In this document: positions 10,701 to 15,938 of the stretch, in pieces
How positions within the stretch are numbered: the stretch's first letter is position 1
How the letters are laid out: the number at the start of each line of letters is the position of its first letter
From: a virus
Taxonomy: Duplodnaviria; Heunggongvirae; Uroviricota; Caudoviricetes
Direction: 5' to 3' (one strand)
DNA: 33,750 nucleotides
IMG/VR virus record: IMGVR_UViG_2778261166_000006
Location: 1-33,750 of that record
Translations under genes and position numbers: made by a program
Notes under the pieces: generated by a model
Databases searched by the model: none
Told to the model about the DNA's origin: nothing
The model's input: only the letters and a program-made list of their open reading frames with translations

Positions 10701-11063
10701 TTGTGGAGAAAGTTGATGCGTGATATGTATGAAGTATTGGACCGCTGGGGTGCATGGGCTGCAGCAGACAACAGTGGTGTGGACTGGCAGCCGGTAGCAG
10801 CAGGCTTCAAGGGGCTTTTACCACACGGTAAAAAGTCACGCCTTCAGTGCGATGATGACGAAGGCATTATGATTGATGGTTGTGTGGCTAGACTGCGAAA
10901 GCATAAACCAGAGGAATATGAGCTGATCATTGCACATTTTGTTATCGGGATTTCGCTCCGTACAATTGCGAAGAGGCGTAACTATTCTGATGGTACTGTC
11001 AGAAAAGAATTGCAGGCCGCACTTGGTTTTATTGAAGGTGTTTGTTTTATGCTCAATATTTAA
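10701..11063 (+). CDS. Q: Late-gene antiterminator Q (QuuD / phage-82-type family)
   Basis: ERWGAWAA...AAGFKGL...KSRLQCDDD...GCVARLRK...DGTVRKELQAALGFIEG matches the recalled QuuD-like Q signature; position before the lysis cassette. Confidence 0.8.
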   Translation: MWRKLMRDMYEVLDRWGAWAAADNSGVDWQPVAAGFKGLLPHGKKSRLQCDDDEGIMIDGCVARLRKHKPEEYELIIAHFVIGISLRTIAKRRNYSDGTVRKELQAALGFIEGVCFMLNI

Positions 11064-12280
11064 ATTAGCACGTCATTTATTAATAAAGCTAATATGCCAA
11101 CACATGTTGGCATCCATGATAAGCAGCGCATTAAGTCCAATACTCTTATGCAGAATACTTCATTTTTGTTTAACTCTATTTGAGCTATTTGTAATCTGAG
11201 TTTGAGTTCATTTTGCTCTTCACTCAATCTGTTCATCATAGTATCGAATAAGGTATCTTTTGCATGAATTATGCGTTCAAGTTGACGTTTTTGAGACACT
11301 GCGACTAGATAAGTAATAATAGATGTCAATAAGATCCCTAAAAATGCCACTATAGAAACTAATTCCCCTGTCATTTGAAATATCGATATTGCAGCAACTA
11401 GTGATACAGGGATGGCTAAAGCTTTGTTGGCTATTTCAGATACGACTTTGGATATTTTGTCTGCATAATCAATTTCAGCATCGGCAATCTCTTTTCTTGT
11501 TTTATGGAAAGAGAATGCAGACATATATACAGCAAGGTTGTTGCTATATAACTCATTGATATCGTTCCAGTTTTTTATTATATTGATAAATGAGCCATTT
11601 GTCTTTGAAATATATTCAATCAGTGTATTTCTGAATGTGTTCAGTTTTTCAAGATAGTGATTATCTTTGCTTGCATCGGATTTAGATAAATTGGCTATAA
11701 GATTGATATTTAGGTCTTCAATATCAAGGACCTCCTCTGTTAAATTAGTTTCAATTACTGCTGTTGTTGATTTCGATTCTGAATGTAGTACAAAAACAAG
11801 GCGATAGAAGCTGGTGTTTCTATCACTTTTGGTATCGTGGAAATGAGCTATGTTCGATAAACATGAAATTAATTGACAAATTTTTTCAATTGTCATTATA
11901 TAGTCAGGCTTTTGGGCATCATAAGAATAAAAATCACTTTCTGCAATGTAATAGTTCTTAGGCATTACGCCTTTTCGAAGAGTATTAATTTCTATAAACT
12001 CTCTTTTTGAAGCATAAAATCTATCTGCACTTCTACGTGCGACTTTAAATGAATATGTTAAAGTGGTTCCTGAATTAGGCAGATCATTTCCATCGTAAAT
12101 CTCGCAACCATCAATTTCAATTTCATCGAATGAACCTTCGTTGAAATTATCATCTAGCATAGTAGTCAACAGCATTTTAATATCTGTTGTATAATCTATT
12201 GACGCCGAAAACTTAACACCGTCGAAATGGGGTGTTTTAGATTTTCTAAATAAATCTACTACAATTTTCAACTGATTCAT
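11060..12280 (-). CDS. Membrane protein (406 aa) with a soluble N-terminal domain and C-terminal hydrophobic segments; downstream gene of the cargo operon
   Basis: Visibly AT-rich. Hydrophobic stretches ALAIPVSLVAAISIFQMTG and LVSIVAFLGILLTSIITYLVAV, plus a hydrophobic C-terminal tail; coiled-coil-like segment between. Start lies 19 nt after the upstream gene's stop. Confidence 0.6.
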   Translation of the reverse strand: MNQLKIVVDLFRKSKTPHFDGVKFSASIDYTTDIKMLLTTMLDDNFNEGSFDEIEIDGCEIYDGNDLPNSGTTLTYSFKVARRSADRFYASKREFIEINTLRKGVMPKNYYIAESDFYSYDAQKPDYIMTIEKICQLISCLSNIAHFHDTKSDRNTSFYRLVFVLHSESKSTTAVIETNLTEEVLDIEDLNINLIANLSKSDASKDNHYLEKLNTFRNTLIEYISKTNGSFINIIKNWNDINELYSNNLAVYMSAFSFHKTRKEIADAEIDYADKISKVVSEIANKALAIPVSLVAAISIFQMTGELVSIVAFLGILLTSIITYLVAVSQKRQLERIIHAKDTLFDTMMNRLSEEQNELKLRLQIAQIELNKNEVFCIRVLDLMRCLSWMPTCVGILALLINDVLI

Positions 12281-12299
12281 TTTATTTTTCTTTTATAAC

Positions 12300-13430
12300 T
12301 CAGTTTAACAAATTCATTTCTTTTAAGGCATCTTTTATTTTTTTTTGCGCTTCTATAGGGAGTCTGTTAAATGTAAGATTCCCATGCTCAGCGTCATAGA
12401 AAATTGTAGCATCAGTAGTTATGCCAAGCAAATCTTTGTCGAAATTAAAACTATATTGATCTGCTTTGAAAATAACATTCCTTAATTTGTCAAGAGATGT
12501 TTTATTTATGACGAACTCCGAAGGAACTCTAACCTCCTCGCTGTTTAAATATTGCATGAGCTCTCTTACTAGGGGGGCTTTTTTATCATCATCTAAAAAT
12601 GCCATGTGAGTTGCAGAAATAGATTCAATATCTGTAAGCTTTGCAGAGCAATTGTTTCCGAACTGGGATTCTAAATATTTTATTACTGCGTTTCTTACTG
12701 CATTTGCATGAGGGCGTAATTCTTTGTGTTTTTTAAAAAACTTTTTTACCTCATTTGGAAGTTTGCGGGTTGCTCCAGCTGATGCGATCCCCTTATCACA
12801 CCCAAGAGCTGCGATGAAATATGCAGCAGCAGACTGTCCCGTAGTTTTGTTGATGAAGCTTAAGTAGCTTAATTCTGTTTTTTGAACATCATCAGCTTGG
12901 TGATATTGATAGTATAAGTGAAAATTTATTTTTGCAGCTTGGTTAATATTATTTAACTCCAGATGTATCATTTCTTCTGGCTCGAGTTTTTCGCTAATTG
13001 TTACTCCATTCGTTTTTTTTATCATAGCTACAAGAAAATATCTGATGCCTGCTGAAATATAATCAGTAAAAACAATGTATCCTCCAGAAGACCAAGATTG
13101 AGATTTGGCTGAATGATACATTTGTTCCATTATTTTCTTTGTTAAGTTAATAAAGTCAATAGATTGAGAAGTTGCTGTTTGGTGATACTGATCAAATAAT
13201 ACCGGGATTGGACCTTGTTCTTTTGGGGCGCTTTTGAATACACCGTAATGTGCTGAGTTGCCTTTAGAGCCATAAAGAGCAACGACCCCTTCAACAAGGG
13301 AAATTACAACAGCGTTTGTTTTATCAAGTTCAGAATCACGCAGGTTGTATCGTTTCGAGTGGTCAAAATCTTTATCTTTCTCTTTTAATAGCTCGTGAAC
13401 AATAACGTGGTTGATTTTTAGGTTTGGCAT
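12300..13430 (-). CDS. NdpA/YejK-like (NA37 family) nucleoid-associated-protein homolog; upstream gene of the cargo operon
   Basis: MPNLKINHVIVHEL, GGYIVFTDY...YFLVAMI, YLSFINKTTGQSAAAYFIAALG and the C-terminal KDLLGITTDATIFYDAEHGNLTF parallel blocks I recall from E. coli YejK. The first in-frame codon of the listed ORF (13454) is TTG, so the start is set at the ATG at 13430. Confidence 0.5.
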   Translation of the reverse strand: MPNLKINHVIVHELLKEKDKDFDHSKRYNLRDSELDKTNAVVISLVEGVVALYGSKGNSAHYGVFKSAPKEQGPIPVLFDQYHQTATSQSIDFINLTKKIMEQMYHSAKSQSWSSGGYIVFTDYISAGIRYFLVAMIKKTNGVTISEKLEPEEMIHLELNNINQAAKINFHLYYQYHQADDVQKTELSYLSFINKTTGQSAAAYFIAALGCDKGIASAGATRKLPNEVKKFFKKHKELRPHANAVRNAVIKYLESQFGNNCSAKLTDIESISATHMAFLDDDKKAPLVRELMQYLNSEEVRVPSEFVINKTSLDKLRNVIFKADQYSFNFDKDLLGITTDATIFYDAEHGNLTFNRLPIEAQKKIKDALKEMNLLN

Positions 13431-13543
13431 TTTTTTCGTTTTTGTTGGGGACAATATAGGTTGTATGAGGATAATAAAAAGTTAACGCGTACGCAAAAAC
13501 TATTGTATCGTGTTAAGAGTGGTTACTTCGCCACACAGCTTAA

Positions 13544-13570
13544 ACCCGCCGTCGAGCGGGTTTTGTCGTT
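13544..13570 (+). terminator. Intrinsic terminator-like hairpin (possible tR' analogue upstream of the lysis genes)
   Basis: ACCCGC-CGTCGA-GCGGGT followed by TTTTGTCGTTT. Confidence 0.4.
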
Positions 13571-13715: not shown

Positions 13716-14042
13716 ATGCCTCATAACCCAAATACCTGGCTGGAGTTGGTCCAGAGCTGGTGGCGTGGAGACACACCGCTGGGCGCAGTGATTATGTCGA
13801 TTGTTATGGCTGGTTTACGTATTGCCTATTTTGGCGGTGGTGGCGGCTGGAAGCGAAAAACACTCGAAATTCTACTCTGTGGCGCTCTGACGCTGACTTT
13901 TGCATCCGCTCTTGAGTATGTCGGATGGCCTAAATCACTATCTGTTGCCATTGGTGGTGGGGTGGGGCTGATCGGTGTTGATGCTATTCGTGGGGCTGCA
14001 ATGAGAGTAATCGGTAACAAGTTTGGTGGCTCTAAGGAGTAA
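13716..14042 (+). CDS. S: Holin (lambda S-like, class I)
   Basis: Hydrophobic segments; similarity to lambda S; directly upstream of the endolysin. Confidence 0.8.
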   Translation: MPHNPNTWLELVQSWWRGDTPLGAVIMSIVMAGLRIAYFGGGGGWKRKTLEILLCGALTLTFASALEYVGWPKSLSVAIGGGVGLIGVDAIRGAAMRVIGNKFGGSKE

Positions 14043-15035: not shown

Positions 15036-15938
15036 ATGGGAAATATAGATCCATTATCATTAGTGACTACAATGGTTAGTCTTAATTTGAATGGCGTGCA
15101 AGTTTCACAGGGAACAGGGTTCTTTTATCAATCTATTGAAGAACAACTTTTATTCTTGGTAACAAATTATCATGTTGTCACCGGACATAGCCCACAATCA
15201 AAAGAATCGCCTTTAGGTGACTCAATTTCCTTCAAAGTTAGGGTGAAATCAGGTGGCAGCAAAACCATTGAGATTCCTCTTTTTAAAAACGGCAAACCAA
15301 CTTGGCTTCAGCATGCAAGTAAGAAAAATGCTGATATAGCAGTAATTCCATTGTTTGGAGATAATCTTAAAGATTGCGAATTCGAAGCATTAAACAGTGG
15401 AGTCAAGAACGAGGATGTTTATAAAGGTCCGACAGCACGAGTAACACTAATTGGCTATCCATATGGTTTTCATGATGCTGCAAATATGCTTCCTGTTTGG
15501 AAAACAGGAAGTGTCGCCAGTGAGCCTGAATATGATTTCAATGGTGAAAAAACAATTGTATTAGATATCTCAGCTTTCCCTGGAATGTCTGGATCTCCTG
15601 CCATGATAGTGGCCAAAGGAGGGTATGGTGATAAAGATGGAAATATGTATGCAGGTAATGCTTATCATTTCTTAGGTATATACGCCAGCATGAATATGTT
15701 CAACAGTGAGCTGAATCTTGAGCAAGTTTCAAATGATGCTAAAAAATTTGTTACGCATACCGAGTCATTGCAGCTTGGAATAATTTGGAAGGCGTCATTA
15801 ATTGACGATATAGTTAATAATTTCAACCTAGAATCTTGGCTTCAGGGATTTAGACAGTCTGCATTACAAGCGAATCTGAAATTAGGTAATGGTCTTCAAT
15901 TAAGCGAAGATGGTAAGAGTGTAATATTCAAATTTTGA
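15036..15938 (+). CDS. Trypsin-like (S1/chymotrypsin-fold) serine protease, AT-rich stand-alone cargo gene
   Basis: Candidate catalytic triad in canonical order: His in LVTNYHVV, Asp in KNADIAVIPLF, Ser in FPGMSGSPAM. AAGGAG ribosome-binding site at 15022-15027; own terminator downstream. Confidence 0.7.
   Translation: MGNIDPLSLVTTMVSLNLNGVQVSQGTGFFYQSIEEQLLFLVTNYHVVTGHSPQSKESPLGDSISFKVRVKSGGSKTIEIPLFKNGKPTWLQHASKKNADIAVIPLFGDNLKDCEFEALNSGVKNEDVYKGPTARVTLIGYPYGFHDAANMLPVWKTGSVASEPEYDFNGEKTIVLDISAFPGMSGSPAMIVAKGGYGDKDGNMYAGNAYHFLGIYASMNMFNSELNLEQVSNDAKKFVTHTESLQLGIIWKASLIDDIVNNFNLESWLQGFRQSALQANLKLGNGLQLSEDGKSVIFKF

What the first reader, a model, noticed from the sequence alone, without database searches (positions are those of the whole stretch)
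11060..13454. AT-rich two-gene cargo operon (NdpA/YejK-like protein plus membrane protein) wedged between antiterminator Q and the lysis cassette: candidate undescribed anti-phage system
Two co-oriented minus-strand genes, 19 nt apart, sit antisense inside the late region between Q and holin, where lambdoid phages often carry cargo. Both are visibly AT-rich against GC-richer phage DNA. The upstream protein shows blocks I recall from the nucleoid-associated protein YejK/NdpA. The downstream protein has a large soluble N-terminal domain, two hydrophobic helices and a hydrophobic C-terminal tail. A nucleic-acid-binding sensor paired with a membrane effector is a classic abortive-infection layout. 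I cannot match this pair to any named defense system from memory.
Basis: partly seen in the sequence, partly recalled or inferred. Interest (0 to 1): 0.85.

Follow-up and report, generated by a model that had tools for sequence, protein, structure and literature searches.

The report
Prophage-borne DS-1 / PANGU-type anti-phage gene pair
The two AT-rich genes are real and almost certainly an anti-phage system, but this type (a YejK-like DNA-binding sensor plus a membrane effector) was already published in 2025-2026 as DS-1 and type II PANGU, so this is an untested, divergent relative and not a new kind of system.

Summary
Two co-oriented minus-strand genes lie 19 nt apart. Their GC is 0.31-0.37, against 0.50-0.56 in the flanks. 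They sit between the antiterminator Q gene and the lambda-family holin of an E. coli/Shigella lambdoid prophage.

Gene 1 is a full-length NA37/YejK-family protein (Pfam E=3.7e-46). Gene 2 has an acidic N-terminal domain, a transmembrane hairpin and a hydrophobic C-terminal helix.

The pair is not undescribed. Both proteins are distant homologues (22-25% identity; NCBIfam E~1e-29; profile-profile probability 99.3%) of the two proteins of DS-1. DS-1 was validated experimentally in the DefensePredictor study. It occupies the same prophage slot, convergent with Q. The architecture also matches type II PANGU (bioRxiv, April 2026). In that model a nucleoid-associated sensor leaves the phage-degraded chromosome, binds the effector's acidic DNA-mimic domain and aborts infection.

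The NA37-to-partner order is kept in 11 of 11 species-representative loci and in 4 distant loci. The two proteins co-diverge (Spearman 0.93).

Both window proteins score far below NCBIfam's DS-1 equivalog cut-offs. PADLOC v2 has no match for either. RefSeq calls gene 2 'hypothetical'.

Verdict: a new, untested member of a known kind. Interest is modest.

The parts
12300..13430 (-). Gene 1: NA37/YejK-family nucleoid-associated protein, 376 aa (DS-1A-like, Pag2A-like sensor).
   Evidence: Pfam PF04245, E=3.7e-46, full length. NCBIfam DS1_1_antiphage scores 101.5 bits and YejK scores 132.6 bits, both below their cut-offs. phrog_3767, E=1.6e-80. PDB YejK 9be2_A, E=8e-13. RefSeq start and homologue N-termini support the ATG.
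12281..12299 (-). 19-nt intergenic spacer; the two genes form one operon.
   Evidence: Estimated spacers in 9 homologous loci range from -8 to 39 nt. The spacer is 2 nt in DS-1, and the genes overlap by 4 nt in L002.
11060..12280 (-). Gene 2: 406-aa membrane effector candidate (DS-1B-like, Pag2B-like).
   Evidence: NCBIfam DS1_2_antiphage, E=1.6e-29, 103 bits against a cut-off of 315. phrog_5023, E=1.6e-126. hhalign against the DS-1B family gives 99.3%, E=2.5e-20, over 303 columns. The AF2 model has pLDDT 87.4.
11426..12280 (-). Codons 1-285 of gene 2: soluble, acidic N-terminal region (alpha/beta domain 1-205 plus helices to 286). Candidate docking or 'DNA-mimic' domain for the NA37 protein.
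   Evidence: Net charge -11, pI 5.08. The family median is -12, and -9 in the DS-1B family. Secondary structure is from the model. The docking role is inferred from PANGU Pag2B.
11291..11425 (-). Codons 286-330 of gene 2: transmembrane hairpin opened by the conserved KAL[AT]IP motif. This is the best-conserved block shared with DS-1B.
   Evidence: Hydropathy up to 2.54. Family-mean hydropathy supports it. See also the invariant columns and the alignment.
11063..11134 (-). Codons 383-406 of gene 2: hydrophobic C-terminal helix (tail anchor). The stop codon (11060-11062) overlaps the 3' end of Q.
   Evidence: The Q CDS ends at 11063.
10716..11063 (+). Antiterminator Q gene, convergent with gene 2 and overlapping it by 4 nt. 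It forms the left boundary of the cargo slot.
   Evidence: PF06530, E=8.5e-45. RefSeq annotation. A Q homologue is convergent and immediately downstream in 10 of 11 related loci.
13431..13487 (.). Divergent control region. The pair's own promoter should lie here or just upstream on the minus strand, but it was not pinpointed. A + strand promoter-like site at 13448-13475 is the candidate late promoter PR'.
   Evidence: Promoter scan and sequence. The minus-strand promoter was not detected by the consensus scan.
13488..13564 (+). Conserved 77-nt element ending in a terminator hairpin (13542-13563) plus T-run. Candidate late leader / tR' unit, and the right boundary of the cargo slot.
   Evidence: This segment matches on its own in E. 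coli genomes that lack the cargo, at about 90% identity (e.g. H48-H51). Terminator scan.
13716..14042 (+). Lambda-family holin, the first gene of the lysis cassette.
   Evidence: PF05106, E=5.7e-25. RefSeq annotation.

Best explanation
The pair is a prophage-carried, two-gene anti-phage system of the DS-1 / type II PANGU kind. It protects the lysogen against other phages.

Gene 1 makes a YejK-like nucleoid-associated protein that sits on the host chromosome. Gene 2 makes an inner-membrane protein. Its acidic N-terminal domain faces the cytoplasm, and its C-terminal part (a TM hairpin, a long helical stalk and a tail helix) is the effector.

The proposed course of events is as follows. An infecting phage degrades or remodels the host chromosome. 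The NA37 protein loses its DNA substrate and becomes free. It binds the acidic N-terminal domain of the membrane protein. This switches on the membrane part, which damages or depolarises the membrane. The infected cell stops supporting phage growth (abortive infection).

Shown here:
- homology of both proteins to both DS-1 proteins;
- the same gene order, protein sizes and prophage slot;
- conserved pairing and co-divergence of the two proteins;
- the acidic N-domain and the TM segments.

Taken from the literature for relatives:
- phage protection by DS-1;
- for PANGU-Ecu, the need for both genes, an Abi-like phenotype, NAP relocalisation and 19 nM binding of the NAP to the effector's N-domain.

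Inferred only:
- that this divergent lineage behaves the same way;
- that the effector acts by membrane damage. Even for PANGU type II, effector activation is unresolved.
For: NA37 domain over the full length. Both proteins hit the two NCBIfam DS-1 models end to end, at E=4.6e-29 and 1.6e-29. BLASTP to the published DS-1 sequences gives 25% identity over 221 aa (E=4e-13) and 22% over 234 aa (E=4e-8). Profile-profile comparison of the two partner families gives 99.3%, E=2.5e-20, over 303 columns.

DS-1 has the same order (NA37 then partner), similar sizes (391 and 404 aa) and a 2-nt gap. It lies in the same KilA-N/DUF968/Q slot, convergent with Q.

DS-1 was cloned with its predicted native promoter. 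The -log(EOP) values were 7.6 on Bas1, 2.7 on Bas26, 1.7 on Bas3 and T3, and 1.0 on T5.

Type II PANGU is described as a YejK-like NAP plus a partner with an N-terminal acidic DNA-mimic domain and a C-terminal TM domain. It is reported to need both genes, to behave Abi-like, and to be escaped by T4 denA mutants. The NAP is reported to leave the nucleoid on infection.

The window partner has net charge -11 and pI 5.08 before the TM hairpin at 283-330, plus a C-terminal helix. The family medians are -12 and -9.

Pairing is kept in 11 of 11 genome loci and 4 of 4 distant loci. Identities of the two proteins co-vary across 9 loci (Spearman 0.93, p=2e-4).

The same slot carries other defence-like cargo elsewhere: caspase+TIR and a KAP NTPase. 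The exact window proteins are seen on 357 and 353 contigs respectively.
Against: No experiment exists for this lineage. Both proteins score about 100 bits against DS-1 equivalog models whose cut-offs are 330 and 315, so function cannot be transferred automatically.

PADLOC v2 has no hit.

The identity of DS-1 with type II PANGU rests on architecture, not sequence.

The 'DNA-mimic' property of the N-domain is only supported by a moderate net negative charge. Surface electrostatics and binding were not tested.

Fold searches gave only generic helical-hairpin matches, so they say nothing about the effector chemistry.

The PANGU mechanism comes from a preprint. It leaves activation of the TM effector open.

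No minus-strand promoter was detected by the consensus scan.
Confidence: 0.75

Rival explanations
1. Superinfection exclusion rather than abortive infection. The membrane protein blocks DNA entry of incoming phages at the inner membrane, and the NA37 protein plays a regulatory or scaffolding role. The infected cell survives.
For: The pair is prophage cargo with an inner-membrane protein. DS-1 abolished plaques of Bas1 completely, which is compatible with an entry block. DefensePredictor did not study the mechanism of DS-1.
Against: PANGU-Ecu showed growth arrest at high MOI and needed phage nuclease EndoII. This places sensing after DNA entry and early gene expression. A cytoplasmic DNA-binding partner that co-diverges with the membrane protein is not expected for a simple entry block.
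Confidence: 0.1
2. A prophage housekeeping function. A phage-encoded nucleoid protein, tethered to the membrane by its partner, organises or silences prophage or host DNA (for example to stabilise lysogeny or control induction) and has no role against other phages.
For: NA37 proteins are nucleoid-associated, and cellular YejK is a housekeeping protein. The pair is tightly linked to the Q gene in 10 of 11 loci across several genera.
Against: The slot is empty or holds unrelated cargo in closely related prophages, so the pair is dispensable for the phage. Only 6 of 5426 complete E. coli genomes carry it. It is strongly AT-rich cargo in nearly every host. Distant members sit in integrase islands beside AbiEii/AAA_21 or BstA-like genes. 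The homologous DS-1 protects a prophage-free construct host.
Confidence: 0.07
3. An addiction (toxin-antitoxin-like) module that stabilises the prophage. The membrane protein is a toxin held in check by the NA37 protein.
For: It is a two-gene operon with a potentially toxic membrane protein, and the two components co-evolve.
Against: For PANGU, neither single gene was toxic, and the NAP is an activator, not an antitoxin. In the pseudogenised copies (L006, L015) both genes are broken, and not only the putative toxin.
Confidence: 0.05
4. A lysis-timing accessory (antiholin- or spanin-like membrane protein), because it lies next to the lysis cassette.
For: Adjacency to holin, endolysin and Rz, and a membrane protein with a TM hairpin.
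Against: It is on the opposite strand and upstream of the candidate late promoter/terminator unit, so it is not co-transcribed with the lysis genes. The same pair occurs next to a CI-type repressor in Shewanella and in non-phage islands. The slot is empty in related prophages that have the same Q region.
Confidence: 0.03

Closest known systems
DS-1 of DefensePredictor (DeWeirdt et al., Science 2026, PMC13092281): WP_000355468.1 (NA37, 391 aa) plus WP_000150292.1 (404 aa)
   Same: Both proteins are homologous. The gene order, protein sizes and short gap match. DS-1 is also AT-rich (GC 0.35). It occupies the same prophage slot, convergent with Q behind KilA-N/DUF968. Hydrophobic segments fall at equivalent positions, and both share the KAL[AT]IP motif and an acidic N-domain.
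   Different: Identity is only 25% and 22%. Scores of 101.5 and 103.1 bits fall far below the equivalog cut-offs of 330 and 315. DS-1A has an N-terminal Zn-ribbon-like extension (NinF-like hit in the paper's table) that the window protein lacks. DS-1 is in 106 of 5426 complete E. coli genomes, the window type in 6. DS-1 has been tested; this lineage has not.
Type II PANGU (Pag2A NAP plus Pag2B TM effector; Li et al., bioRxiv 10.64898/2026.04.06.716658)
   Same: A YejK-like NAP is encoded in a bicistronic operon (gap under 40 bp). Its partner has an acidic N-terminal domain and a C-terminal TM region. The published examples come from E. coli.
   Different: No sequence comparison was possible, because the sequences are in a supplementary table not held. 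I did not show that the window's N-domain is a DNA mimic. The PANGU clusters were defined by linkage to defence islands, whereas this lineage is tied to a prophage Q/late-promoter slot.
Cellular YejK/NdpA (NCBIfam NF001557; PDB 9be2)
   Same: Same NA37 fold family, with a full-length alignment.
   Different: It is not the orthologue: 132.6 bits against a cut-off of 341. It is prophage-borne, AT-rich, and always paired with a membrane partner.
Other defence or moron cargo of the same Q/late-promoter slot (caspase+TIR pair, KAP NTPase, methyltransferase cassettes; stx genes lie nearby in Stx phages)
   Same: Same insertion slot, same antisense orientation, and AT-rich cargo.
   Different: The proteins are unrelated.

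Membership tests
NA37 / YejK superfamily (Pfam PF04245) | Full-length match to the NA37 profile above Pfam's gathering score | tested here: met
   158.4 bits against a cut-off of 24.6, residues 18-365 on profile 1-320 of 325. PDB YejK 9be2_A, E=8e-13.
Housekeeping YejK orthologue (NCBIfam NF001557 equivalog) | Score at or above the curated equivalog cut-off (341 bits) | tested here: not met
   132.6 bits. It is a paralogue on a prophage, not the cellular yejK.
DS-1 (NCBIfam NF053868 DS1_1 and NF053869 DS1_2, equivalogs) | Each protein scores at or above the curated equivalog cut-off (330 and 315 bits) | tested here: not met
   101.5 and 103.1 bits. Both are homologous but outside the equivalog range.
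DS-1 (wider homologous family) | Both proteins are significantly and near end-to-end homologous to DS-1A and DS-1B | tested here: met
   E=4.6e-29 (profile 25-367 of 369) and 1.6e-29 (profile 31-335 of 337). BLASTP E=4e-13 and 4e-8. hhalign 99.3%, E=2.5e-20.
DS-1 (wider homologous family) | Operon layout: NA37 gene first, a partner of about 400 aa second, with a short or no gap | tested here: met
   376 aa, then 19 nt, then 406 aa. DS-1 is 391 aa, then 2 nt, then 404 aa.
DS-1 (wider homologous family) | Confers phage resistance when expressed in a naive host | not testable with these tools
   Shown only for DS-1 itself.
Type II PANGU | YejK-like NAP encoded in a bicistronic operon (neighbour less than 40 bp away) | tested here: met
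.
Type II PANGU | Partner carries a C-terminal transmembrane domain | tested here: met
   Hydropathy segments at 283-330 and 383-406, kept across the family. Helices in the AF2 model.
Type II PANGU | Partner N-terminal domain is an acidic DNA mimic (DMK) that binds the NAP | tested here: inconclusive
   Net charge -11, pI 5.08, family median -12. No surface electrostatics, complex model or binding test was done.
Type II PANGU | Sequence membership in the authors' Cluster 2 HMMs, or similarity to PANGU-Ecu | not testable with these tools
   Sequences and HMMs are not in the held text.
Type II PANGU | Both genes required; Abi-like phenotype; NAP leaves the nucleoid on infection; escape by phage nuclease (denA) mutants | not testable with these tools
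   Reported for PANGU-Ecu only.
Any system in PADLOC-DB v2.0.0 (2023) | Match to a PADLOC protein model | tested here: not met
   No family at E<=1 for either protein.

The most novel reading that the evidence does not exclude
This lineage may be a functionally distinct branch of the NAP-plus-membrane-effector systems, with its own trigger and phage range. Its near-invariable convergent, stop-codon-overlapping junction with the Q antiterminator gene runs from Escherichia to Proteus and Providencia. That junction may reflect regulatory coupling. For example, read-through from the early/Q transcript during the prophage's own induction could silence the defence operon by transcriptional collision, so the prophage does not abort its own lytic cycle.
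Probability: 0.12. Interest if true: 0.5.

Novelty: new member of a known kind. Interest (0 to 1): 0.3.

Why it matters
It shows that the DS-1 / type II PANGU family is broader than current annotation captures. This lineage is missed by PADLOC v2. It falls below NCBIfam's DS-1 cut-offs, and RefSeq labels gene 2 'hypothetical'. A profile of the partner family nevertheless finds about 1000 cluster representatives at 50% identity.

At least three allelic lineages of the pair share one prophage slot in E. coli: DS-1 in 106 genomes, an L002-type in 30, and this type in 6, out of 5426. That makes a natural series for asking how sensor and effector co-evolve, and whether phage range differs between alleles.

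The effector step of type II systems is still unsolved. A confident model of a divergent member helps define what is conserved: the KAL[AT]IP motif, the TM hairpin and the stalk.

It does not open a new category.

Tried and rejected
- PADLOC v2 scan of both proteins: nothing.
- Megablast of the pair against 50,697 phage records: nothing. tblastn found only one close phage homologue, Klebsiella phage P7641 (47% identity), and a few weak ones.
- Foldseek against BFVD: no hit at E<=0.001.
- The afdb50 library was unavailable.
- PDB sequence search with the partner profile: nothing meaningful.
- Looked for the window's accessions in the DefensePredictor supplement: not found, but those tables are truncated in the held copy.
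- Tried to obtain PANGU-Ecu sequences: no supplement is held.
- The consensus promoter scan found no minus-strand promoter upstream of gene 1. The minus-strand 'terminator' at 11113-11094 lies inside the coding sequence of gene 2 and was rejected.
- Rfam found no RNA family in the region.
- I considered and rejected the idea that the pair lies within the late transcript.
Full report
**The observation**

The two ORFs exist as described. 12300..13454 (-) and 11060..12280 (-) are separated by 19 nt. The block is AT-rich: GC is 0.31-0.37 in 500-nt windows from 11001 to 13500. The neighbouring windows are 0.50-0.56 to the left and 0.52 to the right.

A Q antiterminator (PF06530, E=8.5e-45) ends at 11063. 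A lambda-family holin (PF05106) starts at 13716, followed by a lysozyme and Rz. The whole window is an integrase-bounded lambdoid prophage of E. coli/Shigella.

Two details need correcting. First, the start of gene 1 is most likely the ATG at 13430 (376 aa), as in RefSeq. Nine homologues begin 3-6 residues before the conserved IxHVIVHE motif.

Second, the 285 nt between gene 1 and the holin hold a + strand promoter-like site (13448-13475). They also hold a 77-nt element (13488-13564) ending in a GC hairpin plus T-run (13542-13563). This element recurs in other E. coli genomes, sometimes as the only match to a 3.8-kb query around the pair. I read it as the late promoter/terminator (PR'-tR') unit. 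The cargo therefore lies between the Q stop codon and the late promoter, not inside the late transcript. This reading is inference from the pattern, not a demonstrated promoter.

**The proteins**

Gene 1 is a full-length NA37/YejK-family protein (Pfam 158 bits, E=3.7e-46; phrog_3767; PDB YejK 9be2, E=8e-13). It is not the cellular YejK orthologue: it scores 132.6 bits against an equivalog cut-off of 341.

Gene 2 has no Pfam family but belongs to phrog_5023 (E=1.6e-126). An AlphaFold2 model built on 50 homologues is confident (pLDDT 87.4). It shows:
- an alpha/beta domain (residues 1-205);
- helices to residue 286;
- a hairpin of two hydrophobic helices (about 289-330) that continues as a long helix;
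- a further long helix;
- a hydrophobic C-terminal helix (390-405).

Kyte-Doolittle analysis agrees, giving segments at 283-330 and 383-406. The region before the hairpin is acidic, with net charge -11 and pI 5.08. Basic residues follow the second helix (QKRQLERIIHAK). By the positive-inside rule this places the N-domain and the stalk in the cytoplasm.

**Link to published systems**

NCBIfam gives the decisive lead. Gene 1 hits NF053868 'DS1_1 nucleoid-associated anti-phage protein' (E=4.6e-29). Gene 2 hits NF053869 'DS1_2 anti-phage protein' (E=1.6e-29). Both alignments are nearly end to end. Both are far below the equivalog cut-offs: 101.5 against 330 bits, and 103.1 against 315 bits.

DS-1 comes from the DefensePredictor study (PMC13092281). 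It is a two-gene unit, WP_000355468.1 (NA37, 391 aa) then WP_000150292.1 (404 aa), 2 nt apart. [quoted passage not shown] The screen data give -log(EOP) of 7.6 on Bas1, 2.7 on Bas26, 1.7 on Bas3 and T3, 1.0 on T5 and 0.9 on T7.

I used the sequences printed in the supplement. BLASTP gives 25% identity over 221 aa (E=4e-13) for the NA37 proteins and 22% over 234 aa (E=4e-8) for the partners. A profile-profile comparison of the two partner families gives 99.3% probability, E=2.5e-20, over 303 columns. The strongest shared block is the juxtamembrane helix and the start of the first TM helix (KAL[AT]IP).

A second paper (bioRxiv 10.64898/2026.04.06.716658) defines 'PANGU' systems. [quoted passage not shown] Type II PANGU pairs the NAP with a protein that has an N-terminal acidic DNA-mimic domain and a C-terminal TM domain. 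The paper reports that:
- both genes are needed;
- the phenotype is Abi-like;
- T4 escapes through denA mutations;
- the NAP binds the N-domain with a KD of 19 nM;
- how the TM effector is activated is left open.

The window pair has this architecture. I could not compare sequences with the PANGU examples. The equation of DS-1 with type II PANGU therefore rests on architecture.

**Context and relatives**

DS-1 itself sits in the same slot. It lies behind KilA-N, DUF968 and Q, with its partner gene convergent with Q and overlapping it by 21 nt.

Three allelic lineages of the pair occupy this slot in complete E. coli genomes:

| Lineage | Genomes (of 5426) |
|---|---|
| DS-1 | 106 |
| L002-type (68% / 53% identical to the window proteins) | 30 |
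| Window type | 6 |

In other prophages with the same flanks, the slot is empty or carries other cargo. Examples are a caspase+TIR pair, a KAP NTPase, a methyltransferase cassette, unnamed genes or ompC. It is therefore a cargo hotspot, and the pair is dispensable for the phage.

A scan of one genome per species found 11 loci, in Shigella, Pantoea, Ewingella, Xenorhabdus, Pectobacterium, Proteus and Providencia.
- An NA37 gene lies immediately upstream of the partner in 11 of 11 loci. Two of these are pseudogenised.
- A Q homologue is convergent and immediately downstream in 10 of 11.
- Identities of the two proteins to the window pair fall together (Spearman 0.93, p=2e-4, n=9). This is what is expected of an interacting, co-evolving pair.

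The pair is AT-rich (GC 0.29-0.36) in nearly every host.

More distant members keep the NA37-then-partner order in other mobile contexts:
- an integrase island with AbiEii and AAA_21 genes (Pseudoteredinibacter);
- an integrase island (Pseudoalteromonas);
- next to a CI-type repressor in a Shewanella prophage;
- next to a BstA_C-domain gene in Serratia.

A profile of the partner family finds 1007 cluster representatives at E<=1e-3, of which 192 are at E<=1e-30. Most are about 400-430 aa. The acidic N-domain is a family trait, with a median net charge of -12 here and -9 in the DS-1B family.

**Mechanism**

Best-supported reading (confidence about 0.75 for 'anti-phage system of this kind'; lower, about 0.5, for each mechanistic step):
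1. The NA37 protein coats host DNA.
2. Phage-induced loss or fragmentation of the nucleoid frees it.
3. It binds the acidic cytoplasmic N-domain of the membrane protein.
4. The TM hairpin, stalk and tail module is then activated and compromises the membrane, which aborts the infection.

What is shown here: homology, layout, slot, pairing, co-divergence, charge and TM features. What is taken from the literature for relatives: protection, the need for both genes, relocalisation and binding. What is inferred: that this lineage behaves likewise, and that the effector damages the membrane.

**Rivals**

I considered four alternatives: superinfection exclusion (0.10), a prophage housekeeping NAP (0.07), an addiction module (0.05) and a lysis accessory (0.03). 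They are weakened by several points.
- The pair is dispensable and sporadic.
- It has a defence-type context in distant relatives.
- Its strand and position are outside the late operon.
- The published PANGU work found that neither single gene is toxic.

**Novelty and score**

The kind is known: DS-1 (2025/2026) and PANGU type II (2026). This is a divergent, untested lineage that current catalogues miss or leave unnamed. I file it as a new member of a known kind, with interest 0.3.

The claim of an undescribed system is not.

**Dead ends**

- No phage-record DNA match.
- Only generic fold matches.
- afdb50 unavailable.
- No PDB relative for the partner.
- No Rfam hit in the region.
- No detectable consensus promoter for the pair.

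Noticed in passing
window 15036..15938 (+): A second AT-rich cargo gene (GC 0.376) sits between Rz and the HNH/terminase genes. It encodes a 300-aa trypsin-like S1 peptidase (PF13365). It matches PADLOC's phage-defence candidate PDC-S45 at E=9.4e-45, with weaker hits to the LmuA and RT-Protease protease domains. This prophage may therefore carry two defence cargos flanking its lysis cassette.
   Followed up: partly
window 13488..13564 (+): A 77-nt element ends in a terminator hairpin plus T-run. It recurs in other E. coli genomes, often with no annotation and sometimes as the only matching segment (about 90% identity). It is probably the lambdoid late leader / tR' unit that Q acts on.
   Followed up: partly
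window 11063/13431 slot; loci L003, L004 and hits H14-H23: The Q-stop to late-promoter junction is a cargo hotspot in prophages that share the DUF968/Q/holin flanks. Across these prophages it holds a caspase-family plus TIR-domain pair, a KAP NTPase, a methyltransferase cassette, pairs of hypothetical genes, ompC, or nothing.
   Followed up: partly
L006 (Shigella flexneri SFBU0723, second copy) and L015 (Pantoea symbiont of Euschistus servus): These are pseudogenised copies of the pair. The NA37 gene is split into several frames and the partner is truncated or fragmented. The same Shigella genome also holds an intact copy identical to the window (L005).
   Followed up: no
window 6161..6237 and 6262..6349 (+): Rfam finds an isrK Hfq-binding sRNA (63 bits) directly followed by a C4 antisense RNA (82 bits). 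This is the P1/P7-type immunity RNA pair, and it lies in the early region of this prophage.
   Followed up: no
window 353..1297 (-): An AT-rich (GC 0.34-0.38) 314-aa ORF lies just outside the integrase end of the prophage. It has no Pfam family and only a marginal PADLOC hit (PDC-S14, E=0.0075). The left end of the window also differs by an indel from the otherwise near-identical TUM1880 locus.
   Followed up: no
L002 (E. coli PS1Phumofeces1) and hit H61 (strain UPEC85): A third allele of the NA37 pair (382 aa plus 408 aa, genes overlapping by 4 nt) occupies the same slot in 30 of 5426 E. coli genomes, including a strain named UPEC85. It could be the 'E. coli upec' source of PANGU-Ecu, but this could not be checked.
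   Followed up: partly
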